A stretch of DNA of 63,442 nt, the filler included, from Babesia bigemina (taxonomy: Eukaryota): the NCBI RefSeq assembly GCF_000981445.1. It is 6 parts of 6 records of this genome, joined end to end, with 100 filler letters (N's around TTAATTAATTAA, not from the genome) between each part and the next. Parts side by side here need not be neighbours in the genome. Positions count along the whole stretch, not along the records: positions 1 to 15,769 come from NW_012237310.1; 5 more parts are not named here. The stretch is one strand, 5' to 3'. Below the pieces are notes generated by a model. That model saw nothing but the letters and a program-made list of their open reading frames with translations. It had not been told where the DNA came from and searched no databases. This document shows, piece after piece, positions 729-37,022 of the stretch. A program made the translations under genes and the position numbers. Each line of letters opens with the position of its first letter. Positions within the stretch are counted from its first letter, which is position 1.

Positions 729-3700
729 TTATGGTTGCAGATAAAACACCCTCCCCAGTTTGTTAACACGTGCAGCGGCGAGTAGTGATTGAGCAGCTAT
801 GCGATGACTCGAGGGACTATGCAAATGCGATTTGATGTGTAGGAGATCGAGGCGGATGACCATGATGTGGAGGAGGTAGAGGAAAGAGAGGAGCCAGAGG
901 GCGACGGTGGTCCAGAAGAATTTGTCTCGAATATCAAAAAGGAACTCATCGATAGCCTTGATTAGTGCGATAAGTACGGAATCTTTGTGAAGCACTCGTT
1001 CCAATGCACTGCAAAAATCAGCGCACGTCCGTATTTTAGCATCTCCCTTCTTGCCACTCAGTTCATGAGGGCTGCCAAAAGTGAAACCGTATTTGTACAG
1101 AGTAGGATGCGTGTCGGGGCACTTGACGATGGAGTTGCAGTCTTCAGAGTGTTTCTTACTTCTAAGCTCCTTGTTAACTGGTTTTGCGGGATACTTAACA
1201 GGACATGTTTTGATGCAGCTCTTATCGCAGCATCTGGTTCCAGGAGTAGCGCACTTTTTGCAGCACTCCTTGTACAGCTTGTCAAGCAAGGTGTAGAATG
1301 TCTCAGTGAGATAGACAATCCACGAGAGATAATTTCCGGCGTGCTTGTTGGAGAACATGGAACGCGTTTGCAAAGTAAGCGACTGCAGGTAAGGACCACA
1401 CGGATACGCTGGATTGCTTGTCCTATTGCAACGCACAAGAGTGTATAGATCACCCTTGAGATGACCAGAGTCGTCGACGGAGGAAGTTGACGTAACGTGA
1501 TCACTGGTTACTTGAATGGAAACAACTTGCAGCTTTTCGTAGTGTTCACCGAAATAGGCTGCATCGACAGCGGCATCAAAAGCACTCTTCTTATGCTTAG
1601 TCTGCTCGAAGTTCTCAAGCAACCCATGGTAGAAGGCAAACAGGTCACCCAGAGTCTGAGGCGTTTGACGTGTTAAGCAAGTAAGCATACCACACAGCTG
1701 CGTGAGGGCGGAGGACGTACCGCAGAAGTCGGCAAGTGCCTTTCTCAGATGCGCGCCTGTTTGAACATGTGAAGCTACTTGACTAAGGTATCTGAAACCC
1801 ATTGGCGTTTTGCATGGTATTCCTCTATGATTTGAGACTGTGCATTCCCATTTACAACCTGGCTTTGTAAACGAATGCGGCAGGAACCCGGGCAATCCAT
1901 CTTCCAAAAATGATTGAAGTGGCGATTTTACTCCGCACTTAGGGTGTTGCTTGCAGTTTTGGTTACATGTTTGGTCACCCGTTTGGTCGGTGTTTTGGTT
2001 GGCACATTGCTTTGTGTTGCAAGTCCATGCCGAACCGCCAATTCGCTGGCCGTAGAGACAGTCCGACCAACCGCTGCTATATTGGCTGTTGCGGCACTGG
2101 CTGTATATGAAGACGCATTGGTGATAAACTCTTGCCAATATGTCAGACAGCATGTCCAGGCAAGCACCGGCAGTGCTAGGATACAAAAGGTGATCTGGGT
2201 TGGTGTTGAAGTCAACGGCGTAGATACCGCTTTCGTGGCCATGTCCAAGGATGGCGATCAACACTTGCTCGGCATAGGCACAAACTTCTCCGAGGGTAGC
2301 GGATAGGTTCCCAGCAGATATCGGTCGCGGGTAGGCATCCAAGGTTTCGGAACTGTCGTCTCCGAATGATACACTTTCTCCGTCATCTTGCAACTTCGGT
2401 GCATCGCGTTTTTCGAACAGGTCGCTAAATCCGCTGACCGTCAGTTCCGAGTAGACAGCAGTGTGAGTGAGGCCGGTAAGCCACATGAGCATCTGGTATA
2501 CATTTGACGGCGTGGTAGGCTTGGGAACGTGCTTCAGGTGGCAAACGTCATAATACTGGTGGAGGCTGTCGTAGAGGTATTCGAGAAGTTTGTGCAGTTT
2601 TAACGTTTCACCGCCACTTTCCATATATCCGTCCAATAGCTTTTTCGTTGTCGCGTCTAAGCTGCCAAACTGATGGTAGCATAAGTCGCGAATATTGGAC
2701 CCTATCATTCCATCCGACCTCTGTAACTCACCATCTTGCTTAGTTTCACTGGTCGCCACTGTATAGCCACGTTCGACGAAGAACGTTCCGAGAGGATTAG
2801 CGATATATTCCGTTTTGATAACTTTGCTGCCCTTTTTCGTATGTTGTACAACTTTGCCTAGATGGATCTGCTCGCCGTTCCAAGCACTGTAGTCATTCCT
2901 CAATTTATAGAAATCAGCAAACAGAATCTGTAGAGACGTTAGAAACACTTTAGCACAGTTCCGTCCGTCGTCGGTCAGCGTCTGATTTTTCTCAGACGTC
3001 TTTTCACTCCCCCCCTTCGGAGCATCGGCCAGCCACTGACGTATCGGCTCAGCGCCGAGGTACTTGGGAATGTAGACCTTATTCAGCTCGCCAGCAAATG
3101 CGCCAAGACCTGCTACAATGCAGTCTAAGAGCGGGCTGTTCGGGTTTGAGAAGCCGTCTGGCTTGAGCATGGAGAGAGCAGAGGTGAGGTCGTCGAGCAT
3201 CAGAGGGATCTCGTGGTCGAAGCGCTTCTCATTCTTTAAGTGACTACAAACAGCGCTGAATCTGTGATGTATGTATTTAAGAGTAGGAGCGTATGATGCT
3301 TCGCTGCCTTGACGAACGGGACCCTTGTTATTGTTTTTGGTGTTCACCCTATCGATTTCTGTAATCATGTAGTTCTTTATCGGTGTAAAGCAGTTCATTA
3401 AAGCAAGTGACATACCGGCAAAATGTTGCGGAATATACTCAGTTGACTGATATATTGTGCCTGCAAGTTCTTTGAACCGCTTAATAATGTCTCCATTTCT
3501 ATGATCAGCGTCCGTATGTCCATCCGCGGACGTTTTCACAAAGCCCTTAAAGCCAACGGTCAGGTCTCTGTTGATATCTTCAGGTATTCCATCCAGCTCA
3601 GCGGTAGCTTTTTGGATGAATTCGGTCAGCTGCGATTTCATGAATGAGATGTACTTGGTTCTGATGGAATCAATGACGGTGTCTTTGGCGTCATCAAGTT

Positions 3701-6617
3701 GTTGAGTGACGTGTTGTTGCAGTTGTTCAACGATGAGTTCACTCGAAGAAGTGGATTGTATGATGATATCCTGGACTTGCTGCATTAATGGGTTCAGCTT
3801 GTCCGTTTGCAGTCTGTTGATGTCTTCTTTGAATTTCTGTAGAGTGCCGTCGGCGTGTGGCTTCTCTCTTGATATCCATTCTTTCAACTTTTCTAATTTG
3901 TTCTTCGCACATTCATTACTAGCAGTTGCTGCCTGTAAAATAGCATTGCAAAAAACCTGCATATGACTGTGAAAGTTGCTGAGATCTCGCCTGATAAGCT
4001 TGTCATCTACTGTGGTATTTAATTTGCTGAAAGCCATCAGAGCGTTCGTTCGAATTGCTTCAATCGAATTACCAAGAACACCACCTTTGCTAACATAACT
4101 TTTGTAAGCTGTCATTTTGTCTCTAATGCCGTGATCACCACTATAGAAATAGTTTGACATCGCAATGTCTATATCTGCTCCAAGTTCCTTGGAGGTCAAA
4201 ATGGTACCAAGTTGCTCAATCTTATCCTTGACAAGGTCCAACGCTCCTTGGATTTTATCGCCGGCTGTTCCGGTGTTATTTATTACATTTCTTATTGAGT
4301 TCGTTTTTGTGATAGCGTCATGCACGTTTTTGTGCAGGTTGGAAGTAGTGATGAGTTTTGCAACTTGTGCGGAAACATTCTTGGCAGCTGAGGTAAGAGC
4401 AGATACAGTTGCATCCATAGCATATTTTAAAATTGTTCTGTTATTGTGAAGACCTTTATCTTTTAAAACGTCAGCAGCAACTCCCTCAACGATGTCTGAG
4501 ATAAGCGCATGAATATCCCCTTTAGCAACTTTTGTATCAAGTTGAGCAGCGAATTCCGCGGACCCTGTCTCCAACCTCTTGTAACTTTTCACAATATCAT
4601 TATCTGAGGCGTCTTTCGAGCCTTTCGTTGCAAAAGATTGACCTGCTGTTTCAATTTGAGATTTAAGTGCCGTCCTAATTGAAGTTGCAATTTTGCTGAT
4701 GTGATTCTTTGTTATCTCACTTCGATAGTCACTATATTTGGAACTCAAATTGTTGCTGTTCGCATCAAAATAGGCTTTCATTTTGCTCTTCACGGGTTCA
4801 CTCCCCAAAATATCTTTCAACCACTCCTCCACTGTATTCCCAAAATTACTATCGGCGTAGGTTTCTGTAACATACTCCGTAAATCCACGAACAATACCTC
4901 TCAATCCGTCATAATTACGGGAACGTTCATCACCTTCAATTTTCTCTACAAAAGAATTAATAACGAATTTAAGAACATCCCAATTATAATCAATACTATC
5001 CCCGTTTTCATTTTTGCCTGCCTTATTCTTATTACCAACTTCTGTTTGAATTTCGCTAAGCATAACTGCAGCTTCTTCAACGTATTCTTCCACTTGCTTC
5101 TTTATTTCACTACTCAATGTCTTTAATCCCTTAATAATCTCTGCATCCAATCCCGTTACCGCATCACTCACCGCTGTTATCAATTTAGGTAGAGCATCTT
5201 TTGACGCATAATACGCTTTATACAAATCCAAGCCTTTCTTCTCCAACGCTTTAACAGACTCTATAAGTTTGTCCTTATGTGAAGTTTTGCTTCCACCAAC
5301 CTCACAAGCAATACTTTCCACGTTCCTTATGGTTAATTCGACAGCTTTGTGCGACTTTTCTATCCAATCATGAAGCCTTTCAACATGCTGCGACAATGTG
5401 TCATTAATTTCTGACATTTTTTGTATAAGCGCTCTAACGATGGCTGTTAACTCGTCGATGAATGAATTTATCTTCTGCGTTACCGTCGTCGTAATTGACT
5501 CCTTGGCATCATTCAGCTGAACGCCGACCAACTTAGTCACCTCCTCAAAGTCTGATTTTTGGCGTTCATATAGTTGACTCAGCCTTTTACGTTGATATTT
5601 AACGATTTCCGTTTTGCTTTTTAGTTTGTTCATTAAATCACCTTGAAGGTCATTAACATGGTCATTAGCATCTTTGATAGCACCCACGTACCGTTCGGCA
5701 TGATGCAGACATGTCTCAATTTGCTTATTAATTTTCTCAACGGAGTTACTAGCTGAATCATTTTGAAGTTCTTTTTTAATCGGTTCAACGTTTGAAGATA
5801 ACGTAGTTATTGCATTTTTAACATTCTCATTACTCTCCCTCACCCTATCATTATACCTCCCCACCCCTGCGACCACCTCTCCAATCGCATCATTAAAACC
5901 TTTTTTACCGGCGTGTTTATTGGCCTCAAGTGACGTAATTGCACTAGTAATTGTCTCTTTATGCTGCCCTAAATGCTTGTAGATGTTACTGAGAACACCA
6001 CTCAAAAATCCCATCACCCCGTCACACAGCCTGTCAAGGTCAGAGTACACAATCCCCTGGCCGTCGTAGCCTTTGGAAGTCTTATCGTAACCAAGAAAAG
6101 TCTGAAGGCCGTCACATAAATTATCTAAGAGGTTTTTAGGATTATTTGATGCATTTTTAAGATTCTTATAATTTTCACAAAGCTCCTCCACTTTCCTCAA
6201 AGCGTCCAACTTGGAGTGCAATTTGGCTAGCTCAGCAGAGGGAGAGGGGGAAGAAGGAAGATTATAAAGGTTATTAGGCTGTTTAAGTTGTTCTTCAAGA
6301 AGCTTAATTTGCTGAGTAACTCGCTGACTAAGCTTCTCAATTACATCGGTGCCAACAGCCTGGCCAGCAGAGTTGACAGACTCAGAAAGCTTAGTAACAA
6401 GAGAAATGTAAACATCATTTAGGTCATTTTTAAGCTCTTCATTACTGTTAATTACAACGATAATAGCATTCTTAACGGCTTTCTTAACAATCTCACTTTG
6501 ACCAACAAATCCTCCAAGCTGTCCAGCCAGGTGACCAAGGCTAATGAGCTTGGAGTCAATGTCCTTTATGGCTCTTCTAGTAGCATCGTCAGTGAGAGAA
6601 TGGTCAGTATCAACAAG
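729..6617 (-). CDS. ves1: Variant erythrocyte surface antigen (VESA1/ves1-like), cassette 1; frame open from 6617 but no 5' ATG (first in-frame ATG at 6014)
   Basis: GIVYSDLDRLCDGVM motif, long helical middle, Cys-rich C-terminal domain, TM segment and the tail RLDLLHIKSHLHSPSSHRIAAQSLLAAARVNKL.RVFYLQP typical of Babesia ves proteins. The ORF-track start at 6221 is TTG and the frame is bounded upstream by TAA TAA. Confidence 0.85.
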   Translation of the reverse strand, partial: LVDTDHSLTDDATRRAIKDIDSKLISLGHLAGQLGGFVGQSEIVKKAVKNAIIVVINSNEELKNDLNDVYISLVTKLSESVNSAGQAVGTDVIEKLSQRVTQQIKLLEEQLKQPNNLYNLPSSPSPSAELAKLHSKLDALRKVEELCENYKNLKNASNNPKNLLDNLCDGLQTFLGYDKTSKGYDGQGIVYSDLDRLCDGVMGFLSGVLSNIYKHLGQHKETITSAITSLEANKHAGKKGFNDAIGEVVAGVGRYNDRVRESNENVKNAITTLSSNVEPIKKELQNDSASNSVEKINKQIETCLHHAERYVGAIKDANDHVNDLQGDLMNKLKSKTEIVKYQRKRLSQLYERQKSDFEEVTKLVGVQLNDAKESITTTVTQKINSFIDELTAIVRALIQKMSEINDTLSQHVERLHDWIEKSHKAVELTIRNVESIACEVGGSKTSHKDKLIESVKALEKKGLDLYKAYYASKDALPKLITAVSDAVTGLDAEIIKGLKTLSSEIKKQVEEYVEEAAVMLSEIQTEVGNKNKAGKNENGDSIDYNWDVLKFVINSFVEKIEGDERSRNYDGLRGIVRGFTEYVTETYADSNFGNTVEEWLKDILGSEPVKSKMKAYFDANSNNLSSKYSDYRSEITKNHISKIATSIRTALKSQIETAGQSFATKGSKDASDNDIVKSYKRLETGSAEFAAQLDTKVAKGDIHALISDIVEGVAADVLKDKGLHNNRTILKYAMDATVSALTSAAKNVSAQVAKLITTSNLHKNVHDAITKTNSIRNVINNTGTAGDKIQGALDLVKDKIEQLGTILTSKELGADIDIAMSNYFYSGDHGIRDKMTAYKSYVSKGGVLGNSIEAIRTNALMAFSKLNTTVDDKLIRRDLSNFHSHMQVFCNAILQAATASNECAKNKLEKLKEWISREKPHADGTLQKFKEDINRLQTDKLNPLMQQVQDIIIQSTSSSELIVEQLQQHVTQQLDDAKDTVIDSIRTKYISFMKSQLTEFIQKATAELDGIPEDINRDLTVGFKGFVKTSADGHTDADHRNGDIIKRFKELAGTIYQSTEYIPQHFAGMSLALMNCFTPIKNYMITEIDRVNTKNNNKGPVRQGSEASYAPTLKYIHHRFSAVCSHLKNEKRFDHEIPLMLDDLTSALSMLKPDGFSNPNSPLLDCIVAGLGAFAGELNKVYIPKYLGAEPIRQWLADAPKGGSEKTSEKNQTLTDDGRNCAKVFLTSLQILFADFYKLRNDYSAWNGEQIHLGKVVQHTKKGSKVIKTEYIANPLGTFFVERGYTVATSETKQDGELQRSDGMIGSNIRDLCYHQFGSLDATTKKLLDGYMESGGETLKLHKLLEYLYDSLHQYYDVCHLKHVPKPTTPSNVYQMLMWLTGLTHTAVYSELTVSGFSDLFEKRDAPKLQDDGESVSFGDDSSETLDAYPRPISAGNLSATLGEVCAYAEQVLIAILGHGHESGIYAVDFNTNPDHLLYPSTAGACLDMLSDILARVYHQCVFIYSQCRNSQYSSGWSDCLYGQRIGGSAWTCNTKQCANQNTDQTGDQTCNQNCKQHPKCGVKSPLQSFLEDGLPGFLPHSFTKPGCKWECTVSNHRGIPCKTPMGFRYLSQVASHVQTGAHLRKALADFCGTSSALTQLCGMLTCLTRQTPQTLGDLFAFYHGLLENFEQTKHKKSAFDAAVDAAYFGEHYEKLQVVSIQVTSDHVTSTSSVDDSGHLKGDLYTLVRCNRTSNPAYPCGPYLQSLTLQTRSMFSNKHAGNYLSWIVYLTETFYTLLDKLYKECCKKCATPGTRCCDKSCIKTCPVKYPAKPVNKELRSKKHSEDCNSIVKCPDTHPTLYKYGFTFGSPHELSGKKGDAKIRTCADFCSALERVLHKDSVLIALIKAIDEFLFDIRDKFFWTTVALWLLSFLYLLHIMVIRLDLLHIKSHLHSPSSHRIAAQSLLAAARVNKLGRVFYLQP

Positions 6618-6806
6618 TTATTATAATGGTTTATGGAGGTCATAGCGTTAATAAGACGAAGTAATTCGAGAGATTTGAAGATAGGGTGAACATGATGGGA
6701 CATGGCAGTGGCAAGAGGTGGATGGAGGGAAGTGAAGGGTGACAAGGCACAAGTTATTGCTATGGTTTAAAGAGGTCATAGCGGTGTTATGGCGAAGTAA
6801 TTCGAA
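6618..6806 (-). other. Conserved cassette leader (long type) with out-of-frame uORF
   Basis: Closely matches 16175-16361 and 29787-29973; begins exactly at the edge of the 22-bp array. Confidence 0.75.
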
Positions 6807-8398
6807 GGATGTAGAGTGGGTTAAGGGGCGATGTGGAGTGGATAGAGGGGCGATGTAAGGTGGGTTAGGGAGCGATTAGAGGAGGTTAAGGGGCGATGTA
6901 GAGTGGATTAGGGAGCGATGCAGAGTGGGTTAAGGGGCGATGTAGAGTGGATAAAGGAGCGATGTAGAGTGGATAAGGGAGGGATGTAGAGTGGGTAAAG
7001 GGCGATGTGGAATGCGTTAGGGAGCGATGTAGAGTGGATAAGGAGCGATGTGGAGTGGATAAAGGGGCGATGTAGAGTGGGTAAAGGAGCGATGTGGAGT
7101 GGATAAAGGAGCGATGTAGAGTGGGTTAGGGAGCGATGTAGAGTGGATAAAGGGGCGATGTAGAGTGGGTAAAGGAGCGATGTAGAGTGGGTAAAGGAGC
7201 GATGTAGAGTGGATAAAGGGGCGATGTAGAGTGGGTAAAGGAGCGATGTAGAGTGGGTAAAGGAGCGATGAAGGGTGGATAGAGGAGCGATGTAAGGTGG
7301 GTTAGGGAGCAATGTGGAGTGGGTTAGGGAGCGATGTGGAGTGGATAAAGGGGCGATGTATAGTGGGTTAAGGAGCGATGTAGAGTGGTTTAGGGGCGAT
7401 GTGGAGTGGATAGAGGGGCGATGTAAGGTGGGTTAGGGAGCGATTAGAGGAGGTTAAGGGGCGATGTGGAGTGGACAAAGGGGCGATGTAGAGTGGATAG
7501 AGGAGCGATGTGGAGTGGATTAGGGAGCGATGTAGAGTGGGTAAAGGGGCGATGTGGAGTGGGTAAAGGAGCGATGTAGAGTGGATTAGGGAGCGATGCA
7601 GAGTGGGTTAAGGGGCGATGTAGAGTGGATTAGGGAGCGATGCAGAGTGGGTTAAGGGGCGATGTAGAGTGGATAAAGGAGCGATGTAGAGTGGATAAGG
7701 GAGGGATGTAGAGTGGGTTAAGGGGCGATGTAGAGTGACTAAAGGGGCGATGTAGAGTGGGTAAAGGGGCGATGTAGAGTGGATAAAAGGGCGATGTAGA
7801 GTGGGTTAGGGAGCGATGTGGAGTGGGTTAAGGGGCGATGTAGAGTGGATTAGGGAGCGATGTAGAGTGGGTAAAGGGGCGATGTAGAGTGGATAAAGGC
7901 GCGATGTAGAGTGGATAAAGGGGCGATGTAGAGTGGGTTAAGGAGCGATGAGGAGTGGGTTAGGGAGCGATGAAGAGTGGGTAAAGGGCGATGTAGAGTG
8001 GGTAAAGGGGCGATGTAGAGTGGGTTAAGGGGCGATGTAGAGTGGGTTAAGGGGCGATGTAGAGTGGATTAGGGAGCGATGAAGAGTGGGTAAAGGGGCG
8101 ATGTAGAGTGGGTTAGGGAGCGATGTGGAGTGGGTAAAGGGGCGATGTAGAGTGGGTAAAAGGGCGATGTGGAGTGGATAAGGAGCGATGTGGAGTGGGT
8201 TAGGGAGCGATGTAGAGTGGATAGAGGAGCGATGTGGAGTGGATAAGGGGCGATGTAGAGTGGGTTAAGGAGCGATGTAGAGTGGATAAAGAAGCGATGT
8301 GGAGTGGGTTAGGGAGCGATGTAGAGTGGATAAAGGAGCGATGTAGAGTGGATAAAGGAGCGATGTAGGGTGGGTTAAGGGGCGATGTAGAGTGGATA
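6807..8398. repeat. 22-bp G-rich tandem array (GCGATGTAGAGTGGGTTAAGGG/GGGTTAGGGA variants)
   Basis: GCGATGT(A/G)GAGTGG every 21-22 bp; strong G skew. Confidence 0.95.
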
Positions 8399-8432
8399 AC
8401 AATCACCACTTTGGTCAGCTGCTTGGTCACCA

Positions 8433-8657
8433 CTGTCATCGCTGCTGTGTCCATGTCATCGCTGCCGTGTTGATGTCATCGCTGCCGTGACCATGTCATC
8501 GCTGCCGTGTCCATGTCATCGCTGCCGTGTCTATGTCATCGCTGCCGTAACCATGTCATCGCTGCCGTAACCATGTCATCTGCTTTGTCACCACTGTCAT
8601 CGCTGCCCTGACCATGTCATCGCTGCCGTAATCATTTACTGTCATCGCTGCCGTGAC
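8433..8657. repeat. 20-bp tandem minisatellite
   Basis: (GCTGCCGTGACCATGTCATC)n variants. Confidence 0.92.
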
Positions 8658-9097
8658 CACTAACTTGGTCAACACTTTGGTCAACACCTTGGTCATGGCA
8701 TTGGTCAGCACCTTGGTCAGCACCTTGGTCATGGCATTGGTCACCACTCAGGTCAGCACCTTGGTCAGCACTTTGGTCACCACTTTGGTCATGGCATTGG
8801 TCACCACCTTGGTCACCACGTTGGTCAGCACCTTGGTCAACACTTTGGTCAACACCTTGGTCATGGCATTGGTCAGCACTTTGGTCACCACTTTGGTCAT
8901 GGCATTGGTCACCACCTTGGTCAACACGTTGGTCAGCACCTTGGTCAGCACCTTGGTCATGGCATTGGTCACCACTCAGGTCAGCACCTTGGTCAGCACT
9001 TTGGTCACCACTTTGGTCAACACATTGGTCAGGTGCTTGGTCAGCACATTGGTCATCACGTTGGTCACCACGTTGGTCAGCACATTGGTCAACACTT
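8658..9097. repeat. 12-bp tandem minisatellite
   Basis: TTGGTCA core every 12 bp. Confidence 0.95.
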
Positions 9098-9223
9098 CAG
9101 TTAACTACTACACAATCACATATTACAACAATTAATGAGTGATAGAACAGATTAAAGCACAATTCATAAGTTAGGTGAGTAGGTGATGCTAGGTGAGTGT
9201 AGATAGTAAACACGTGAGTGAGA
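9098..9223 (-). other. Conserved 3' tail/UTR of ves cassette 2
   Basis: Nearly identical to 606-728. Confidence 0.8.
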
Positions 9224-12200
9224 TTATGGTTGCAGATAAAACACCCTGTTAAGCTTGTTAACACGTGCGGCGGCAAGTAGTGATTGAGCAGCGATACGAT
9301 GACTCGAGGGACTATTCAAATGCGATTTGATGTGGAGGAGGTCTAGGCGGATGACCATGATGTGTATGAGGTAGAGGAGAGAGAGGAGCCAGAGGGCTAC
9401 ATTGAGCCAGAAGAATTTTTCTCTAATTTTCCAAAGGAAGTTCGGAATGGTGATATATGTCAAATCGCCAAGAACATTACCCTTTTTCAAAACCTTATTT
9501 AATGCGTTGCAGAAGTCTTGGCACGTTCGTTTCGTTTCCGGGCCATAGGTTCCGCTGAGGTTTGATTCGCTCTGAAATACAAATCCGTATTTGCATAATG
9601 TCGGACGTGTGAATGGGCACTGAGCAATTGACCTACAGTTTTTAGAATGAGTGGAGGTATGGGAAACTAAACAGTTCTGGTGACACGTCTTACCATGACA
9701 CCGTGATCCTGGGGTTTTGCAGTTTTTGCAACACTCTTCGTACAGCTTCTTGAGTAAATCGTAAAATGCTTCCGTGAGATAGACAATCCAAGTGAGATAT
9801 TTGTCGGCATTGACTTCGGAGAAAACTGTCCATATATTGTGGCCAAATGGCTGCATATACCGGCCGCATTCCATTTCAGTTTTGTTACCGTAATCGCACG
9901 TAAATAAACTATGCAGCTCACCGTTAACGTGATTACCGGTCTTGTGATCGCTGCCCTTAAATATCGTGGTTATATCCAAATCTGGATATGCTTCACCGAA
10001 ATGGGCCTTGCTGACGGCATCGTTAAAAGCATTGCTTTTATGCATATTGCGTTTGCTGTTATTACCATTCCAACCTTTAAGTAGATGGTAGTAGAATGAG
10101 AACATGTCGTCCAAGGTCCGCGGAGCTCGCTGTAACAAGCACGTAAGTGAGGCGCAGATTGCAGCCAAGGGTGTATTAGGTGTACCGCAGAAGGCTGCTA
10201 AAGCATCTGCGAGATGCGATCCTTTTTTTGTATGTGACGCCGTTACACTGATATCTGCAAAGCCCATTGGAGTTTTGCATGGTATGCCACGATGGTTTGG
10301 CGCTTCGCAAGTTAGTTTGCAATTGGGTGTTTTGAAGGGGTGAGGGAGAAACCCAGGCAGACCATCCTCCAAGAATGACTGCAGAGGCGACTTTATGCCA
10401 CACTTCGGGTGTTGCTCACACGTTTGGTCAGCGTTTTGGTTACACTTTTGGGCACCTCTTTGGTTGGCAATTAGGTCAGCGCATTGTATCTCATTGCACT
10501 CCCATGACGAACCGCCCACGTGCCGACCATAATAACAATCACGCCACGATACAGCGTTTGATGCACGATGACACTGAACGTATATGAAGTAGAGTTGATT
10601 ATATAGTCTAATCAGTATTTCTATGCATAGGTCTAGACACTTTGACGGATTACTTGGATATGACAACTTGTCCGGGTTCGTATTGAAATCACAGGCGTAA
10701 CGACCACCTGCGTGTCCGTGGCCTAGTATTGCACACAATACCTCATACGAATGATGGCATACCTCCATAAGTGTGGTCGAGAGATTTGCAACGCTGACTT
10801 CATGTGGATAAGCTGGCAATGCGTCGGCGGTGTCGTCATCGAAGGATACGTCCTCACTGTCAGCTGGCGCAGAGTGTTCAGGCTTTTCGAAAAAATCGCT
10901 AAATGCGTTAAGCGATAGTTGCGGGTACACCGGATTATACGTAAGCCCGCAGAGCCATGAGAGCATCTGGTAGATGTTGCATGGCAGCTTAGATGACTGT
11001 ACAGTTGGTAGGTGACAGACCATATAATATTGGTTGACGTGTTGGATGATGCAAGTAATAATGCCAACTATATTGAATCTATTTTGCGATTCTTTGCCTC
11101 GGCAATCCTTGAGATGCACATTATAGTGGGCGTCTTGAATATTCGTATTAAGGTTACGAAGTATGTGCCTGCCCATCATGCCAACAGAGCATTGCAACTC
11201 ACCGTCCTGATTGCTGTTGGCGGATGGTATCTTATAGCCGCGTGACAGAAAGAAGTCCCCCAGAGGGTTACCTCTCGCATCAGAGGTTTCGTATATTTTT
11301 CGTCCTTTCCACTCTGCTTGCTCCGTGCACTGCTTATGCAACTCGGTCAAATCATCGCAAATCACTTTAAAAATAGACATACAAACTTTCGCAGCATGAC
11401 GGCTCTCTTCCGTTTCTTTGTTAGCAAACAGTTCGTCCCAACTAATTTGTTTCGCACCGTCATACGTAGAGATGTATGTCTTTCTCAGTTCGCCAATCAA
11501 GCCGCCCAGCCCGCTGGTGATTCCGTCGAGAATGGCGCTGTTCGGGTTAGAGAACCCCTGTGGAGTTAGGTCACTAACCGCCGATTCCAGTGAGTCAAGC
11601 AGGCCGGGGATTTGGCAGTCGTACTTGTTTTTGTCGGTGACGTGAGTGAGTAGCGCGTTGAGCGATTCGGTGATTTTAGATAGACCAGTTAAGTATGGTT
11701 GCGGATCCTCACTTTTAGGGTTTCTCTTATTGTTTTCGTTTGTTACTCTTTTGATCTCCTTGTTGAGATAATCGTGCATTGGTTGCCAAGAAGCGTTGAA
11801 TGCGTACGATAAATCTTGCAGTCTCTTTGCATCATTTTGGCCCTCAAGCAACTTAATGTTCCTATCATTGTCACCAGCGAATGCCTCCATGAACCCTTTA
11901 AATCCGATATGCATATCCTTTTCAATGGCCTCGGGTAGGTTGGTGAGTTCGGCGGTAACCTTGGCGGCAAAGGCGTCGAGTAGCAATCGCATGGTAGTAA
12001 CATAATGTTTTCGCGTCTGAGTTGTAAGTGCTCTACTTACGTTGTCGACTTGATTCTCAACTACATTCTTTATCACAGTGATAGCACCCTCGCCGGCATC
12101 GTCGGCCTCTCTACTAACAAAGGTGTGAGACAACTCAATTGCTAATGGCAAATTAACGCTTTGCAAAGTGTTGATCTGCTTTTTAATTTTTTTGAGCTGT

Positions 12201-14788
12201 ACTCCGATATTCGTATTTCTCAAATCTTGTAAAATACCCATGGCATTGCCGCCTGCATTCGTTATATTTGCACTCAGTTCTGCGAATCTACCGAGCACAT
12301 CAGCGGCATGATCTCTTATCGCGTTTTTGGACTCTTCGGCTTGTTGAATAATACTACTGATTTCGTCTTTAAGAGGTTTAAGTTTGTCTTGAACGATTGC
12401 AGTGACTGCCTCCTGAAGATTTCCCATACCGTTAATTACAGCGCCATTAACTAGATCTAAAAGTTTTTCGTTGAAATCACCTGCAATAGATCTATCTTTC
12501 ATTGATGATGTAACGTTGGTGCCGATGAGTTGAACAAATCTTTCCCATCCCACAGCGTTATCTTTTTTTACGGAATTAAGATAGTACAATAAAATTTCAA
12601 AGCAATAACCCAGACCCCCCTTCTCTGTGTCAGATTTTGCCGTTGTGAACAACAATCCGAATGTGCCAAGTTTACCTTTTATATCCTCTCCCAAATGATC
12701 AATCATAGCGTTGAGCCCGGGTGTCGTCGTGCGACTGAAATTATCCGCCTTCTGGATCCCTGCCTCCAAAGCCTCCTTCACATACTTCAGATAATTCTCA
12801 ACGTTTGTATGTATTGCTTTGGTGAGCCCTTCTATTTCATTTTTCAATCCCCATTCATCCGTTTTCTTAAATCCTTCCAAGCTCTTCGGCTCATTAACCT
12901 TATTTTCCGCATCATCTAGCATATGTATCACGCATTCCTCATCATTTCCATCTCCACTCTTCCCTTTAATTAGCTTAAATAGCTTTTCGTATTCAGACTT
13001 AGCAGATTCAAAGTGCCTATGTAGCAATCCGGCTTCCGTCTGAATCAAGTCAGCAGTTGTTTTAATCCTTTCAGCGCTCATGCTTCCAGTGCCATCAATG
13101 TCTCCTAATATGACTGCAACCTTACGTAGAGCTTCATCCAAGATTCTCTGCGCATCTTCCATCCACGTTGCTAAATTGTACACGTACTGCTGCATATTAT
13201 GTTCAACTTCAATGAGCTTATCCCTAATTTTAGTAACCAGCGATTTCAAATGCTTCACCAACGATCTTACTTGCATCTCAATTTCCTCATTTATCTGTTT
13301 TTTTAGCTCGCTTAACATTTTCTTTACCAAAGCGCTCATCTCCTCCAACTCCTTTTTTTCTTTGGTTGACAACTCACTGAGGCGCTTAATTTCATGCTCA
13401 ATACAGTCTTTCACATCATATACTTTTAACATTAGAGTATGATTTAGGTCATTTACGTTATCCTTGTTTTCATTTATGGCTCCGCAAAAATCTTTTGCTT
13501 TCCCAAGACATGCCTCCGCCAGATCGGTCGCCGCCTTGACCTGATTATCCTCATTATCAGGGTCGGCAGATACACTTTTGACTTCAATCGTCTCAAACGT
13601 GTTATTAAATTCACTTTCAATATAATCATGAAATATTTTTATAGGCGTACTTACATTTTCATTTGACCTCTTCACCTTCTCATTATACCTCCCCACCCCT
13701 TCGACCACACTTCCAATCGCAACATTAAAACCTTTTTTACCAAGGTGTTTATTGGTGTTAAGAGTGTTAATTGCATCTGTAATTGTCTCTTTATGCTGCC
13801 CTAAATGCTTGTAGATGTTACTGAGAACACCACTCAAAAATCCCATCACCCCGTCACACAGCCTGTCAAGGTCAGAGTACACAATCCCCTGGCCGTCGTA
13901 GCCTTTGGAAGTCTTATCGTAACCAAGAAAAGTCTGAAGGCCGTCACATAAATTATCTAAGAGATTTTTAGGCTCATTTGAAGGCTTACTAACATTAACA
14001 TAAAATCCACAAAGCTTCTCCACTTCCTTCAAAGCCTGCAACTTGGACTGCAATTTGGCTGACTCAGCAGAGGGAGAGGGGGAAGAAAGAAGATTATTAG
14101 GAAGGTTATTTGGCTTATTAAGGCTATTAATATGCTGTTCAGTTTCAGTAATTTCTTGGTTAACTCGCTCACTAAGCTTCTCAATTTCACCGGTGTCATC
14201 AGCCTGGTCAGCAGAGTTGACAGACTCAGAAAGGTTAGTAACATAAGAAGAGTAAAGATGTTTTAGGTCATTTTTAAGGTCTTTATTAGTGTCAAAAACA
14301 ACGATAATAGCATTCTCAACGGCTTTCTTAACACTCTCACTCTCACCAACAAAAGCGCCAAGCTGTCCAGCCAGGTGACCAAGCTGGACAATCTTCTCTT
14401 CAACAGACTTCAAGGCAGGAGATGGAGGATGTTTTTTGTGAGCATTTATACAATCTTCTAGACATGTTTTATAGAAGTTAATACTATGATTATCTGGGAT
14501 ATTTTCAACGGTTTTTTTGGATTCTTTGAATTTTTTCTCAGCCTCGTCATGCAGTCTCTGGTAGTACTGACAGTAAGTCTCCTTATCAGAGTATTTGAAG
14601 GGGCATTCAAGTTTATCTTTTTCGGCTTTAAGGGACTTTTCAGCCTTCTCAATAGCCTCCTCAATCAACTTTTTCAAAGCTTGAGACAACTGGTCAAGAC
14701 CATCACCACCATCACCATTCCCATACCTAACCTGGATCAACCAGTCGATGGACTCAGTCAGAAGGGGAGGTGAAGGGGGACAAGGCAC
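9224..14788 (-). CDS. ves1: VESA1/ves1-like cassette 2; lacks the MAPKKLTDCPENLR-type start (ORF-track start is GTG; first in-frame ATG at 13846)
   Basis: ESIDWLIQVR N-terminal motif, GIVYSDLDRLCDGVM, SPLQSFLEDGLPGFLPH, TM segment and conserved tail. Confidence 0.87.
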   Translation of the reverse strand: MPCPPSPPLLTESIDWLIQVRYGNGDGGDGLDQLSQALKKLIEEAIEKAEKSLKAEKDKLECPFKYSDKETYCQYYQRLHDEAEKKFKESKKTVENIPDNHSINFYKTCLEDCINAHKKHPPSPALKSVEEKIVQLGHLAGQLGAFVGESESVKKAVENAIIVVFDTNKDLKNDLKHLYSSYVTNLSESVNSADQADDTGEIEKLSERVNQEITETEQHINSLNKPNNLPNNLLSSPSPSAESAKLQSKLQALKEVEKLCGFYVNVSKPSNEPKNLLDNLCDGLQTFLGYDKTSKGYDGQGIVYSDLDRLCDGVMGFLSGVLSNIYKHLGQHKETITDAINTLNTNKHLGKKGFNVAIGSVVEGVGRYNEKVKRSNENVSTPIKIFHDYIESEFNNTFETIEVKSVSADPDNEDNQVKAATDLAEACLGKAKDFCGAINENKDNVNDLNHTLMLKVYDVKDCIEHEIKRLSELSTKEKKELEEMSALVKKMLSELKKQINEEIEMQVRSLVKHLKSLVTKIRDKLIEVEHNMQQYVYNLATWMEDAQRILDEALRKVAVILGDIDGTGSMSAERIKTTADLIQTEAGLLHRHFESAKSEYEKLFKLIKGKSGDGNDEECVIHMLDDAENKVNEPKSLEGFKKTDEWGLKNEIEGLTKAIHTNVENYLKYVKEALEAGIQKADNFSRTTTPGLNAMIDHLGEDIKGKLGTFGLLFTTAKSDTEKGGLGYCFEILLYYLNSVKKDNAVGWERFVQLIGTNVTSSMKDRSIAGDFNEKLLDLVNGAVINGMGNLQEAVTAIVQDKLKPLKDEISSIIQQAEESKNAIRDHAADVLGRFAELSANITNAGGNAMGILQDLRNTNIGVQLKKIKKQINTLQSVNLPLAIELSHTFVSREADDAGEGAITVIKNVVENQVDNVSRALTTQTRKHYVTTMRLLLDAFAAKVTAELTNLPEAIEKDMHIGFKGFMEAFAGDNDRNIKLLEGQNDAKRLQDLSYAFNASWQPMHDYLNKEIKRVTNENNKRNPKSEDPQPYLTGLSKITESLNALLTHVTDKNKYDCQIPGLLDSLESAVSDLTPQGFSNPNSAILDGITSGLGGLIGELRKTYISTYDGAKQISWDELFANKETEESRHAAKVCMSIFKVICDDLTELHKQCTEQAEWKGRKIYETSDARGNPLGDFFLSRGYKIPSANSNQDGELQCSVGMMGRHILRNLNTNIQDAHYNVHLKDCRGKESQNRFNIVGIITCIIQHVNQYYMVCHLPTVQSSKLPCNIYQMLSWLCGLTYNPVYPQLSLNAFSDFFEKPEHSAPADSEDVSFDDDTADALPAYPHEVSVANLSTTLMEVCHHSYEVLCAILGHGHAGGRYACDFNTNPDKLSYPSNPSKCLDLCIEILIRLYNQLYFIYVQCHRASNAVSWRDCYYGRHVGGSSWECNEIQCADLIANQRGAQKCNQNADQTCEQHPKCGIKSPLQSFLEDGLPGFLPHPFKTPNCKLTCEAPNHRGIPCKTPMGFADISVTASHTKKGSHLADALAAFCGTPNTPLAAICASLTCLLQRAPRTLDDMFSFYYHLLKGWNGNNSKRNMHKSNAFNDAVSKAHFGEAYPDLDITTIFKGSDHKTGNHVNGELHSLFTCDYGNKTEMECGRYMQPFGHNIWTVFSEVNADKYLTWIVYLTEAFYDLLKKLYEECCKNCKTPGSRCHGKTCHQNCLVSHTSTHSKNCRSIAQCPFTRPTLCKYGFVFQSESNLSGTYGPETKRTCQDFCNALNKVLKKGNVLGDLTYITIPNFLWKIREKFFWLNVALWLLSLLYLIHIMVIRLDLLHIKSHLNSPSSHRIAAQSLLAAARVNKLNRVFYLQP

Positions 14789-14844
14789 AAGTTTTTATTG
14801 TGGTTTAAAGAGGTCATAGCGGTAATATGGCGAGGTGATTCGAG
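14789..14844 (-). other. Conserved cassette leader (short type)
   Basis: CGAATCACCTCGCCATATTACCGCTATGACCTCTTTAAACCAC... joins the array to the ves frame; the leader ATG is out of frame and stops. Confidence 0.75.
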
Positions 14845-15869: not shown

Positions 15870-16174
15870 CTTTATCCACAATACATCGATCCTTTACCCA
15901 CCTTACATCGCTCCCTAACCCACTCTACATCGCTCCTTAACCCACCTTACATCGCCCCTTTATCCACTCTACATCGCTCCTTTATCCACTCTACATCGCC
16001 CCTTTATCCACTCTACACCGCCCCTTAACCCACTCTACATCGCCTTTTAACCCACTCTACATCGCCCCTTAACCCACTCCACATCGCTCCCTAACCCACT
16101 CTACATCGCTCCCTAACCCACTCTACATCGCTCCTCTATTCACTCCACATCGCTCCTTTATCCACTCCACATCC
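15870..16174. repeat. 22-bp array (C-rich on + strand)
   Basis: (CATCGCYCCTTAACCCACTCTA)n. Confidence 0.93.
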
Positions 16175-16361
16175 CTCGAATTACCTCGCCATAATACCGC
16201 TATGACTTCTATAAACCATGCCCATAACTTGTGCCTTGTCACCCTTCACTTCCCTCTTTCACCTCGTCCACTGCCATGTCCCATCGTGTTCACCCTAAGT
16301 CCAAATCACTCGAATTAACTCGTCTTATTAACGCTATGACCTCCATAAATCATTATAATAA
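16175..16361 (+). other. Conserved cassette leader (long type)
   Basis: CTCGAATTACCTCGCCATAATACCGCTATGAC... ending in TAA TAA in the ves frame. Confidence 0.75.
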
Positions 16362-19300
16362 CTTGCTGATACTGACCATTCTCCTAGTGAGGATGCTACT
16401 AAGAAAGCCTTGCAGGACATTGACTCCAAGCTCATTAGCCTTGGTGAACTGGCTGGTCAACTTGGAGGATTTGTTGGTGACAGTGAGAGTGTTAAGAAAG
16501 CCGTTGTGAATGCTATTATCGCTGTTTTTGACACTAATCCGCACCTTAAAAATGACCTTAAACATCTTTACTCTCCTTATGTTACTAACCTTTCTGTGTC
16601 TGTCAACTCTGCTGGCCAGGCTGATGACACCAAGATAATTAGTGAGCTTAAAGATAAAGTTACTAGTCAAATTACTGAAACTAAAAGACTAATTGATAAC
16701 CTTAATAACCATCTTAATCCCTCTCTCTCTTCCCCCTCTCCCTCTGCTGACCCAGCCAAATTGCAGTCCAAGTTGGAGGCTTTGAGGAAAGTGGAGGAGC
16801 TTTGTGGATTTTTGACTAATCCTAAAAATGCGTCAAATGATCCTAAAAAGCTCTTAGATAATTTATGTGACGGCCTCGAAACCTTTCTCGGCTTCAACTC
16901 TGCTTCCAAAGGCTACGATGGCGCTGGCATTGTGTACTCCGACTTGGATAGGCTGTGTGACGGGGTGATGGGATTTTTGAGTGGTGTTCTCAGTAACATC
17001 AAAGAGCATTTAGGGCAGCATAAAGAGCAAATTACAGAAGCTATTAAGTCACTTGAGACCAATAAACACCTTGGTAAAAAAGGTTTTAATGATGCGATTG
17101 GAAAGGTGGTCGCAGGGGTGCGGGGGTATAATAAGGAAGTTAAAAAGTCTAATAATAACGTTAGATATCCTATAGATAAACTACTAAAAGATCTCGAAAA
17201 TGACGGTACGTTTGATAAAGCTTACAAAAAAATTTATGCTGAGTCGGTTACTGGCAATCCTGAGGACGGCCAGGTGAAGGCTGCTGACAACCTGGCCGAG
17301 CAGTCACTAAAATTAGCCCGTGATTTCTTAGGCGCTTTGCACGAATCAGAAGAACGTGACAAGGCAGTGAGTGATCTTAATCATGATTGCAGAAACAACG
17401 TTAATAATGCGCGCAAAATCATTAAGCACGAACATGATAGGCTTCAAATGAACTTTGGAAATGAGAGTAATGCATCGAGAAATATGGTAGAAGCAGTTAT
17501 TAAAGAAATTACCGGTATGAATGCAAATGTTAATAAGCAGATAGACGAGAAGGTAGCACCATTGATTAACGAGTTAAAGAAGAAGATGCAAGAATTCTTA
17601 GAGCAGGTGGAAAATGGTCCAAAGAAAGATCTAGGTCGGTGGCTTAAAGAAGAAACAGAGACGACGGATCAAGGTAAAAAGTCAAAGAAAGACGCTTTTG
17701 CAGCATCTAGGGATAAAGTGTATGCAGGGGTTGAAAATTTCGAAACGAACTATCACGACATTCATCCACAACTTGAAGCTATTAAAGGGATTGTTCAGAA
17801 AAGTAACAGCACCGAAAAACTTGAGGAATCAGTTGCGAAGATTACCTCGGCAGTGAAAGACGTCGGTGAGCAGCTTGGACTCCAAGTCAAGAGTCTGGAA
17901 CACTGGAGGACTACGGCGCTAGAAGTTGTTAAAGTAGCATTGAAAAGAGTTGATGAAATTGTTAATAAGCTGGATGGTAAGAAGGCAGATCAAGAAGCAG
18001 AGAATAGTGAGAGAGATGAGGTTACTAAGGCAGCTGGCGAATTGAAGGACCAAGCATTGAAGCTTATGACGGCTATAACGGAGGCAACAGGTAAGTTGAG
18101 TACCGGCATTGCAACAGCTGGCCGAGCAGTTACTGATCTGGATGATGCGTTAAAAAAATCTCTGCATTCGCTGAAAACTAGAATAAAGACAACGATTTCG
18201 CAGTATATTGGGAAGTTGTCTGGTGCTCTCGATGCGGGTATGCAGAGTACTAGAGGTTATAGCGGCACAGCAGGTTTCAGTGCTTTCATGAGTAATTTCA
18301 ACAGTGAGCATCCGATAAGTCCAAAAACCGAGTTTGGAAAACGGCTTCAGGAGGTTGGGCGTAATAACATCAAACTTGCAAGAGGCATTCATACAGCTCT
18401 AATAGAACTAAATAACGAGAAATCTCAGTGGAGCAGGATCACTCCCGGATCGAATGAACTTCAGTCTGCAATTAGCAAAGATCTTCAGGATAGTGTCGAC
18501 AAAGAGTTGCCAGATGCTGAGGACGACGAGAAAGTTCTACTTACCAGTCTTGTTAGTTACAGCGCAACGGGCGCCACGGGTTCTAAGCAATGGCTTGAGA
18601 AATCTATCAGCAGTATGCAGGAAAGTGTAAAAGGTAAGCTTGACAACATAGTATATCCCGAAAAAACAGGCAAAATGATAACCGCACATATGATCACAAC
18701 GACCCATCATGAACTGAATATTAAGTTCAAAAGCTTCATTCGTGCCGTCACAAATATTATCAAGAAGGATCCTCATATGGGAAGCAATGAGCATCTCAAT
18801 TACGACTTGAGAAAACTTAATGCTATGCTAGATGGTAAAGAATCTATATACGGCATTAACAACCATTTGAATACGATTCATACTGCACTAAGTGCTATAC
18901 ATAAAAAGGAGTTTGGTGAACAATTATCGAACAGCAGTGTGTATGGCGCCATTTCTGTCGTCACGGATAAAGTTATAATGCTTGAGAAAGCGTCAACTGC
19001 CACTGATACACCGGATGGGAATCTCATGAAGCTTGTTGGCAGTTTACCGAAAGACATGAGGTCCCTTAACAACTGCATTAATACGGTGATCGAAGTTGTT
19101 GAAAATGCAGATAAGCAATTACAGCAATGGATTACAAACGTAGGTGTATATATAGCTACAATGGACAAGACAGGCCACGATTTCGCCGATGGTCTCAAAG
19201 AATTCGTTGATGTATCAATGTCTTATGCCAAGAACATTATTACAACTGACATCCAAAAAGGCTACGTGCGTTCCGTCAAAAGACAACTTAAATATTTCGC

Positions 19301-22127: not shown

Positions 22128-22250
22128 TCGTACTCACGTGTTCACTATCTACACTCACCTAACATCACCTACTCACCTAACTTATGAATTGTAGTTTAAT
22201 CTGTTGTATCACTCATTAGTCGTTGTATGTGATTGTGTAATAGTTAACTA
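22128..22250 (+). other. Conserved 3' tail/UTR of cassette 3
   Basis: TCGTACTCACGTG...CTCACCTAAC...GTTAACT block. Confidence 0.8.
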
Positions 22251-22578
22251 AAGTGCTGACCAATGCCATGACCAAAGTGCTGACCACAGTGTTGACCAAG
22301 GTGTTGACCAAGGTGCTGACCAAGGTGTTGACCAAGGTGCAGACCTATGTGCTGACCAATGCGATGACCACAGTGGTGACCAATGTGCTGACCAATGCCA
22401 TGACCAACGTGATGACCAACGTGATGACCAACGTGATGACCAATGCTCTGACCAAAGTGCTGACCAATGTGCTGACCAAGGTGTTGACCAAGGTGCTGAC
22501 CAAGGTGTTGACCAAGGTGCAGACCTATGTGCTGACCAATGCGATGACCACAGTGGTGACCAATGTGCTGACCAAGGT
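22251..22578. repeat. 12-bp minisatellite (GTGCTGACCAAN)n
   Basis: TGACCAA every 12 bp; internal 180-bp higher-order duplication. Confidence 0.95.
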
Positions 22579-22682
22579 GATGGTCACGGCAGCGATGACA
22601 TGGTCACGGCAGCGATGACATGGACAAAGCAGCGATGACATGGTTACGGCAGCGGTGACATGGTCGCGGCAGCGATGACAGT
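22579..22682. repeat. 20-bp minisatellite (GGTCACGGCAGCGATGACAT)n
   Basis: About five units. Confidence 0.9.
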
Positions 22683-22703
22683 GGTGACCAAAGTGATGAT
22701 GAT

Positions 22704-23728: not shown

Positions 23729-23755
23729 CTCGAATTACCTCGCCATAATACCGCT

Positions 23756-29531: not shown

Positions 29532-29550
29532 GTGAGCAGAGTGGTGATTA

Positions 29551-36485: not shown

Positions 36486-36493
36486 TAATAATT

Positions 36494-36989: not shown

Positions 36990-37022
36990 TGGTGACCAAC
37001 CACCTGACCAAAGTGGTGATTA

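What the first reader, a model, noticed from the sequence alone, without database searches (positions are those of the whole stretch)
6618..6810. All six cassettes are cut at the same array/leader junction but join the ves frame at different points
Seen: the 22-bp array ends in ...ACATC(C/G)CTCGAATTACCTCGCC-like sequence at about 6807, 14845, 16175, 23729, 29787 and 60865. The leader then enters ves at ESIDWLIQVR (cassettes 2 and 6, replacing the 14 residues MAPKKLTDCPENLR seen in the intact gene), at ..DATRRAL.DI(D/E)SK (cassettes 1, 3 and 5) or at ..LNLKITSN (cassette 4). Inference: one ancestral, homogenised 5' boundary has been grafted onto different genes and removed their start, as expected of a recombination boundary rather than random decay.
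Basis: seen in the sequence. Interest (0 to 1): 0.75.

Follow-up and report, generated by a model that had tools for sequence, protein, structure and literature searches.

The report
Start-less ves1b cassette archive in Babesia
In the cattle parasite Babesia bigemina, tandem copies of a red-cell surface-antigen gene have lost their normal start yet keep long open reading frames behind a shared repeat spacer, and they likely serve as a silent library that is copied into intact genes to vary the antigen.

Summary
A 32-nt motif follows a 22-bp array in the same register at all six sites (0 expected by chance). The window holds Babesia bigemina ves1b-type genes on several contigs joined by artificial linkers. 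The shared junction shows no sign of being a cut site. It is one point inside a conserved spacer (3' flank, 12-, 20- and 22-bp arrays, ~78-bp leader) whose other edge is also in register (4 of 4). The variable breakpoints lie downstream, in three entry classes here and at least five in database models. All six lie upstream of a conserved 40-codon block. No cassette has an in-frame ATG before that block, yet the five complete frames are open (1678-1995 codons) and carry protein-level selection. Among named database models, 140 of 173 B. bigemina and 80 of 106 B. ovata relatives lack the normal start; the B. bigemina ones lie on short contigs or chromosome ends. Five of 33 intact genes share near-identical patches with them. 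Best reading (0.55): a start-less donor archive converted into ATG-bearing loci. Main rival (0.22): expression in place from the leader's own ATG. No RNA data could be obtained.

The parts
6731..6806 (-). c1 leader, first copy (array/leader junction at 6806; leader ATG at 6779)
6613..6670 (-). c1 second, diverged leader copy; holds the last in-frame stops before the ves frame
729..6617 (-). cassette 1 ves1b-type frame, 1962 codons stop to stop, class B entry, first Met at codon 202
5947..6131 (-). 185-bp tract identical to c2 13779-13963, covering the conserved NLC..GIVYSDLDRLCD..GVMGFL block
6807..8400 (-). 22-bp array upstream of c1 (about 72 units; C-rich on the sense strand)
8429..9223 (-). 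3' part of the spacer after c2: about 125-bp conserved flank, 12-bp array, 20-bp array
9224..14794 (-). cassette 2 frame, 1856 codons, class A entry (LTESIDW at about 14752); N-part 77% identical to ATG-intact P0007
14767..15769 (-). c2 leader (junction 14844) and 22-bp array, cut by the contig end
15770..15869 (.). artificial contig linker (also 37087-37186, 52336-52435, 58387-58486, 61287-61386)
15870..16361 (+). 22-bp array, leader (junction 16175) and second leader copy (16309) of c3
16362..22127 (+). cassette 3 frame, 1921 codons, class B
22128..23875 (+). full spacer c3 to c4: 3' flank, 12-, 20- and 22-bp arrays, junction 23729, leader ATG 23756 in the ves frame, in-frame stop 23873-23875
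23876..28912 (+). cassette 4 frame, 1678 codons, class C
28913..29973 (+). full spacer c4 to c5, junction 29786, second leader copy 29921
29974..35961 (+). cassette 5 frame, 1995 codons, class B
35962..37086 (+). spacer after c5, ending in the start of a further 22-bp array at the contig end
43617..48557 (+). ATG-intact ves1b-type gene (MAPKKLTDCPENLRESIDW); no spacer motif anywhere on its contig
58487..60824 (-). cassette 6 frame (class A, LTDSIDW), 3' end cut by the contig end
60788..61286 (-). c6 leader (junction 60864) and 22-bp array, cut by the contig end

Best explanation
These are head-to-tail arrays of Babesia bigemina ves1b genes that lack the normal start but keep open frames, and they likely act as a silent donor archive whose sequence would be copied by homologous recombination into ATG-bearing ves1b genes. 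Shown: each unit is [22-bp array][leader][5'-truncated frame][3' flank][12-bp array][20-bp array]; two coding blocks (40 codons near the front, about 58 at the end) are conserved around a variable middle of 4-5 kb; all six joins lie upstream of the front block. Inferred: a few ancestral 5' deletions fused the leader to different points of the gene, and these 5' modules then spread by recombination between cassettes, which also keeps the spacer homogeneous. Inferred: the two blocks serve as homology arms for conversion into intact genes. Candidates for receiving loci are the inner-chromosome genes and two short-contig genes beginning MRHVPKK (P0007, P0128), whose N-parts are the closest intact relatives of the class A and B fragments. 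The array/leader junction itself is probably a passive landmark.
For: (1) No in-frame ATG before the block in 6 of 6; the leader ATG opens the frame unspliced in 0 of 6. (2) Five complete frames are open; at 2% random substitution about 4 stops each are expected and at most 6 of 200 trials stay open. (3) Block dN/dS is 0.14-0.34 (c1/c2 identical, undefined) and the last 58 codons 0.06-0.19 among cassettes. The Met-free fragments before the block (c1, c2, c3, c5; 139-144 codons) have dN/dS 1.07-2.71, no stops and gaps in multiples of three (one pair also shows a compensating +1/-1), whereas leader gaps are 1 bp. (4) c2's N-part is 77% identical to intact P0007 with a run of about 55 identical residues; c1/c3/c5 are 62-66% identical to P0007 against at most 46% to other intact genes. 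(5) 5 of 33 intact genes have 4 or more 50-aa windows at 90% or more to a start-less gene; P0088 is 91-96% identical to P0193 over about 500 aa and 19-34% over the N-terminal part. The intact/start-less label changes 22 times on a 226-row C-terminal tree (shuffled mean 40), so the classes interleave. (6) c1 and c2 share a 185-bp identical tract exactly on the block. (7) 140 of 173 B. bigemina models lack the normal start (122 on short contigs, 14 at chromosome ends); 29 of 33 intact ones are inner-chromosome; B. ovata has 80 start-less of 106. (8) c4's only stop falls in the short stretch before the block, where a donor would not need an open frame. (9) PMC4066756: ves1b loci are 0-3.3% orthologous between strains, and its proteomics table assigns peptides to 28 chromosome-end 'hypothetical' rows.
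Against: No RNA or clone series was available, so neither silence nor direction of transfer is shown. Identical runs of 50 aa or more are about ten times commoner within a class (105 of 9730 start-less pairs; 7 of 465 intact pairs) than between classes (4 of 4340), and 18 of 33 intact genes, including the window's own, have no high-identity window. pN exceeds pS firmly in only 2 of 6 pairs, and four fragments stay open by chance in 14-117 of 2000 trials; the signal could be inherited from expressed copies. The peptide evidence comes from a different, non-clonal strain and fits expression in place equally well. 16 database models have the leader ATG in frame, and one candidate intron could open 5 of 6 cassettes. 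'Start-less' in the database rests on automatic gene models without DNA.
Confidence: 0.55

Rival explanations
1. The cassettes are real genes expressed in place: the leader supplies a new ATG and a short N-terminus, read straight through in classes C, D and E and joined by a short intron in classes A and B.
For: The leader ATG is present in 9 of 9 copies. An invariant GT at +56 is followed in 6 of 6 by a first TAG in the matching phase, which opens the frame in 5 of 6. AG is scarce in class B leaders (P 0.003-0.024). 16 database models are colinear from the leader ATG and two use this intron. Chromosome-end rows carry about twice the summed iBAQ of the 18 labelled VESA1b rows (30,876 against 14,119). 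Selection on the N-fragments fits.
Against: 55% of TAGs in these frames are in that phase anyway (156 of 283), so four independent sites agree by chance about 9% of the time. The donor reads GTGCCT, which lacks the usual purine at +3 and G at +5 (recalled consensus; no Babesia model tested). Other AGs come first in c2, c3 and c6. That intron does not open c4, whose stop lies behind the acceptor (6 other GT-AG pairs would skip it). The KLTDCPENLRE motif that defines all 59 intact models would be lost. 54 B. bigemina models start only at the block Met, and database models choose inconsistent introns.
Confidence: 0.22
2. One reading: the 22-bp array or its junction is itself the upstream recombination boundary, like the 70-bp repeats of trypanosome VSG, and an unseen expression site carrying the same array swaps whole cassettes there.
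For: The array precedes 6 of 6 cassettes, varies 10-72 units in length, and has 4.9-6.9 G3 tracts per 100 bp on one strand with G4-like motifs in 5 of 6. The nested second leader in class B suggests the module was added twice. Chromosome-end genes all have their 5' end towards the record end (31 of 31 rows seen).
Against: A swap at the array would bring in a gene without a usable start and in varying frames. Both array edges are equally in register. The longest identical tract across a junction-proximal leader is 32-35 bp against 185 bp on the block. The intact gene here has no array.
Confidence: 0.12
3. Non-functional pseudogene arrays: recent duplicates that lost their start and are homogenised by unequal crossing-over in unstable chromosome ends.
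For: Most exchange is within the start-less class; leaders pick up 1-bp indels and c4 has a stop.
Against: The middles are 27-41% identical, so these are not recent duplicates, yet five frames of about 5-6 kb have no stop. There is purifying selection on both blocks. The same split is seen in B. ovata models, and peptides map to chromosome-end genes.
Confidence: 0.06

Closest known systems
BbigVes1b family (PMC4066756)
   Same: Same protein family: 14 of the 18 table rows labelled BbigVes1b are among my hits, and cassette C-termini are 92-93% identical to their best intact match. Frequent replacement between strains is reported.
   Different: The parts I read do not describe start-less copies, the 12/20/22-bp spacer or the leader. 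The paper counts about 80 ves1b, and its table lists chromosome-end copies as 'hypothetical protein' or 'undefined product'.
Babesia bovis ves1 segmental gene conversion into the LAT (PMC6630957, PMC2034396)
   Same: Silent donors give patches to an expressed gene; truncated ves1 were suggested to be functional pseudogenes.
   Different: B. bovis genes are mostly interstitial head-to-head alpha/beta pairs. Here the donors are head-to-tail, near full length, share a repeat spacer and fall into discrete truncation classes.
Anaplasma msp2/p44 functional pseudogenes (PMC11946796)
   Same: A variable centre between conserved 5' and 3' blocks; silent copies that also recombine with each other.
   Different: Bacterial, short cassettes and one expression site; here 5-6 kb eukaryotic frames, about 30 intact genes and no expression site identified.
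Pneumocystis msg-I with CRJE and UCS (PMC10622565)
   Same: Subtelomeric promoter-less genes with mostly open frames and homogenised flanks.
   Different: The CRJE is one in-frame junction at the start of every gene. Here the shared leader is mostly out of frame and joins at five or more points.
Trypanosoma brucei VSG archive with 70-bp repeats (PMC4528486, PMC3708902)
   Same: Repeats upstream of most archive genes, conserved 3' ends, mosaics built from pseudogenes.
   Different: 70-bp repeats also lie in expression sites and bound conversion of intact genes; here the genes behind the repeats lack a start and no array-bearing expression site is known.

Membership tests
BbigVes1b (B. bigemina VESA1b) | Homology along the length to genes labelled BbigVes1b | tested here: met
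   Best intact matches over the middle are 32-39% identical and over the last 60 aa 92-93%; 14 of 18 labelled rows are among my hits
BbigVes1b (B. bigemina VESA1b) | Conserved C-terminal domain with a hydrophobic anchor | tested here: met
   Seen in 5 of 5 complete frames; dN/dS 0.06-0.19; no transmembrane predictor was run
BbigVes1b (B. bigemina VESA1b) | Own start with the KLTDCPENLRE(S/A)IDW N-terminus | tested here: not met
   Absent in 6 of 6 cassettes, present in the gene at 43617; the cassettes are truncated copies of the family
B. bovis LAT-type locus | Head-to-head ves1 pair with a shared promoter | tested here: not met
   Three real neighbours are head-to-tail; the one head-to-head pair spans an artificial linker
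Functional-pseudogene archive (msp2-like) | Conserved 5' and 3' blocks around a variable centre | tested here: met
   Blocks 78-100% and 90-98% amino-acid identity among cassettes, middle 27-41%
Functional-pseudogene archive (msp2-like) | Donors are transcriptionally silent | not testable with these tools
   No RNA could be examined
Functional-pseudogene archive (msp2-like) | Donor sequence appears in expression-competent genes | tested here: inconclusive
   Patches in 5 of 33 intact genes, none in 18; direction unknown
Pneumocystis msg-I/CRJE | One in-frame junction element at the start of every gene | tested here: not met
   Three entry classes here, five or more in database models; leader frame varies
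Pneumocystis msg-I/CRJE | Single-copy promoter and leader locus | not testable with these tools
   No genome held; P0007 and P0128 are candidates only
T. brucei VSG/70-bp repeat cassettes | Repeat array upstream of most archive genes | tested here: met
   6 of 6 cassettes
T. brucei VSG/70-bp repeat cassettes | Same repeats in the expression site, bounding conversion of intact genes | tested here: inconclusive

The most novel reading that the evidence does not exclude
B. bigemina and B. ovata run a two-tier VESA1b system. Well over a hundred start-less cassettes sit in chromosome-end arrays, all with their 5' ends towards the chromosome end and spaced by G-rich minisatellites. They feed one or a few end-proximal expression copies of the MRHVPKK type by crossover or conversion at conserved coding blocks. 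This would be a dedicated silent-cassette archive in an apicomplexan, convergent with trypanosome VSG and Pneumocystis msg, and it would supply most of the VESA1b actually made.
Probability: 0.3. Interest if true: 0.85.

Novelty: new variant of a known kind. Interest (0 to 1): 0.62.

Why it matters
How B. bigemina switches its red-cell antigen, and from which locus, is open; the reference study found LAT-like pairs in only 35% of cases and almost no ves1b orthology between strains. If most ves1b copies are start-less donors, the repertoire is larger than the roughly 80 counted, many 'hypothetical' gene models with invented first exons are wrong, and the expression locus becomes a concrete search: an ATG-intact gene near the arrays that turns into a mosaic over time. 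If instead the leader ATG is used, the parasite makes a large class of VESA1b without its conserved N-terminus. One long-read cDNA experiment separates the two.

Tried and rejected
Whole genome: none held, so the genome-wide junction table could not be made. RNA: no RNA holder was listed for window 29786-36050, so no reads were laid. Metagenome scan for the leader: 1 match, L001, which shares only the 20-mer and was dropped as chance. Earlier findings: three look-ups returned nothing. Pfam gave no family above its cut-off for 10 proteins. Idea that the leader's tail is a decayed 22-bp unit: not above shuffles (p 0.19-0.87), rejected. Idea of a splice acceptor right before SIDW: c2 has AG there, c6 does not, rejected. 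Idea that the array is telomere repeat: units contain GGGTTAGGG-like words but no tandem telomere repeat was found (search motifs recalled), left open. Head-to-head c2/c3 as an LAT: linker artefact. Assembly artefact as the cause of the pattern: unlikely, since it recurs on three contigs, in 39 leader-bearing database models and, as missing starts, in a second species. Whether LT(D/E) before SIDW is a remnant of the intact LTD could not be decided.

Full report
What the window is. The long frames are ves1b-type genes of Babesia bigemina: the best hit of cassette 1 is 100% identical and named for that species, and 14 of the 18 rows labelled BbigVes1b in the proteomics table of PMC4066756 are among my hits. 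The window is six contigs joined by identical 100-bp linkers, so only neighbours within a contig count: c2-c1, c3-c4-c5, and c6 alone. No whole genome was held.

Checking the observation. Each array ends on the same partial unit, and about 78 nt of leader are shared. The three entry classes are real, with small wording errors for c1, c3 and c6. Three additions matter. c1, c3 and c5 carry a second leader copy about 135 bp on, 93-95% identical among themselves and 72-83% to the first copies. The leader has an ATG at +27. The other edge of the 22-bp array is in register in all 4 visible cases.

The junction is part of a spacer. Between real neighbours the sequence runs: stop codon, about 125 bp of flank (84-93% identical), a 12-bp array, a 20-bp array, the 22-bp array (10-72 units), then the leader. 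None of five spacer motifs occurs on the contig with the intact gene. An identical array/leader junction is what a shared spacer gives; it needs no cutting. The joins that differ are leader-to-gene. Identical tracts near the junction reach 32-35 bp, whereas the longest tract, 185 bp between neighbours c1 and c2, covers the conserved coding block.

The frames are start-less but not decayed. No cassette has an in-frame ATG between its last upstream stop and the block; the first Met is at the end of the block. Read unspliced, the leader ATG stops early in all six; in c4 it is in the ves frame and meets one stop at 23873-23875. The five complete frames are open for 1678-1995 codons; 2% random substitution would give about 4 stops each. 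The 40-codon block has dN/dS 0.14-0.34 (15 pairs among cassettes plus 6 with the intact gene; c1/c2 identical), the last 58 codons 0.06-0.19 among cassettes, and the middles are 27-41% identical with saturated synonymous sites. The Met-free fragments before the block in c1, c2, c3 and c5 have dN/dS 1.07-2.71 and gaps in multiples of three, while leader gaps are 1 bp. The excess of pN is firm in 2 of 6 pairs, borderline in 1 and weak in 3; all four fragments stay open in 117 or 14 of 2000 neutral trials at 5% or 9% substitution. So this sequence is, or recently was, made into protein somewhere.

Family-wide picture, from protein models only. Three searches (best 120 of 125, 150 and 340 hits) gave 279 proteins. 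In B. bigemina, 33 have the normal start (29 inner-chromosome tags, 2 other chromosomal, 2 on short contigs) and 140 do not (122 short contigs, 14 chromosome-end tags, 4 other; five are the window's own). In B. ovata, 26 are intact and 80 start-less. The C-terminal query alone gave 83 start-less to 7 intact in B. bigemina, but it favours cassette-type tails. Leaving out the window's five, 39 models begin with leader-derived residues: 4 of class A, 19 of class B or unclear, 13 of class C colinear from the leader ATG, and two further classes entering at SPSPS (2) and TPPPSS (1); 54 begin at the block Met. 37 of the 39 keep the block, though two of the three queries contained it. Four B. ovata models also enter at SIDW behind a different pyrimidine-rich stretch, and none carries the B. 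bigemina leader peptide. These are automatic models; some may be cut by contig ends or mis-spliced.

Exchange with intact genes. The N-parts of c1, c2, c3 and c5 are closest to P0007 (62-77%; next best at most 46%) and c6 to P0128 (58%); both begin MRHVPKK and lie on short contigs. c2 shares a run of about 55 identical residues with P0007. Of 33 intact genes, 5 have four or more 50-aa windows at 90% or more to a start-less gene (P0088, P0089, P0172, P0007, P0128), 10 have one to three, and 18 have none. On a C-terminal tree of 226 rows (those with a complete tail, of 281) the intact/start-less label changes 22 times against a shuffled mean of 40, so the classes cluster but interleave. Against a heavy flow, identical runs of 50 aa or more occur in 105 of 9730 start-less pairs, 7 of 465 intact pairs and only 4 of 4340 mixed pairs. 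Direction is not shown.

Published data. In PMC4066756 ves1b loci are 0-3.3% orthologous between strains and about 40% lie in unassembled, mostly subtelomeric regions. Its proteomics table, searched by tag prefix, assigns peptides to many chromosome-end rows called hypothetical or undefined: 28 rows sum to iBAQ 30,876 against 14,119 for the 18 labelled VESA1b rows. I left out one shared nine-accession row, one row of unchecked family and one row found on one sheet only. I hold proteins for 9 of the 28, all start-less; the other 19 are assumed family members by size and place. Reading the table's coordinates as concatenated records (my inference from record lengths), all 31 end rows seen have their 5' end towards the nearer record end; the intact gene 0300080 at the inner edge points the other way. 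Record ends are not shown to be telomeres. The peptides come from another, non-clonal strain, so they show that cassette-type sequence is expressed, not where from. In B. caballi the dominant ves1c transcript comes from near a telomere (PMC10463595).

Mechanism. I favour a start-less donor archive (0.55): 5' deletions fused the leader to several points upstream of the block, recombination spread these modules and homogenised the spacer, and the two blocks let cassette bodies be copied into ATG-bearing genes. The strongest rival is expression in place (0.22). An invariant GT at +56 is followed in all six by a first TAG in the matching phase, opening five frames. However, 55% of TAGs in these frames have that phase, the donor looks poor by recalled consensus, and c4's stop lies behind that acceptor.

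What I read. PMC4066756: passages, sections 22 (part 1 of 2), 23, 24 and 26, the text legends of supplement 2, and searches in supplement 3; its figures, including gene models and RNA-seq ranks, were not visible and may bear on the intron question. Passages only: PMC5660447, PMC10463595, PMC2034396, PMC6630957, PMC10622565, PMC11946796, PMC3708902, PMC4528486, PMC11033541. Five Babesia-directed searches showed no paper describing this spacer or start-less ves1b arrays; subscription journals are not covered. PMC2034396 already suggests that truncated B. bovis ves1 may be functional pseudogenes, so the kind is known and the architecture appears new.

Verdict. A real feature, partly misread: the fixed junction is a landmark in a homogenised spacer, and the telling boundary is the conserved coding block. 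New variant of a known kind; interest 0.62.

Noticed in passing
window 16886-16911, 23953-23978, 30486-30511 (+): One primer of the B. bigemina SpeI-AvaI diagnostic PCR (from PMC11033541) matches the conserved ves1b block with 2-3 mismatches in c3, c4 and c5 (0 expected by chance); the other primer has no match. The assay target may be a ves1b segment, which would fit its reported variability.
   Followed up: partly
window 43617-48557 (+): The intact gene is 91% identical overall to P0122, with a 435-aa identical run, but only 62-71% over the first 300 aa: a replaced N-terminal part.
   Followed up: partly
window 49758-52335 (+) and 37187-38276 (-): Two related-looking frames (..GGIILTSLNDCFRFL....DLKIETLKQCFEFL..), the first with a long Pro/Ser/Thr-rich tract, both cut by contig ends; possibly ves1a or ves2 (guess from the paper's description; no Pfam hit).
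   Followed up: no
window 40612-41529 (+): 305-codon cysteine-rich frame ending in a hydrophobic stretch; possibly the last exon of a surface protein; no Pfam hit.
   Followed up: no
window 9224-10250 (-) and 23876-28912 (+): Cassettes are mosaics of other start-less genes: c2 shares 527 identical aa with P0057; c4's last 299 aa are 88% identical to P0190 and P0191.
   Followed up: partly
database proteins P0001-P0279: Start-less B. bigemina models have two homogenised tail types (74 of type ..RVNKL(N/G)RVFYLQP, 48 of type ..AAQVGRLAKISYLQP, of 140); all five complete cassettes here are the first type; P0007 has the second.
   Followed up: partly
window 61387-63442: GC-rich contig with what appear to be internally repeated segments, judged from near-duplicate translations around 61.5-62.2 kb and 62.1-62.9 kb; no spacer motifs.
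   Followed up: no
22-bp arrays, e.g. window 6807-8400: One strand carries 4.9-6.9 G3 tracts per 100 bp with G4-like motifs in 5 of 6 arrays; the C-rich strand is the sense strand.
   Followed up: partly
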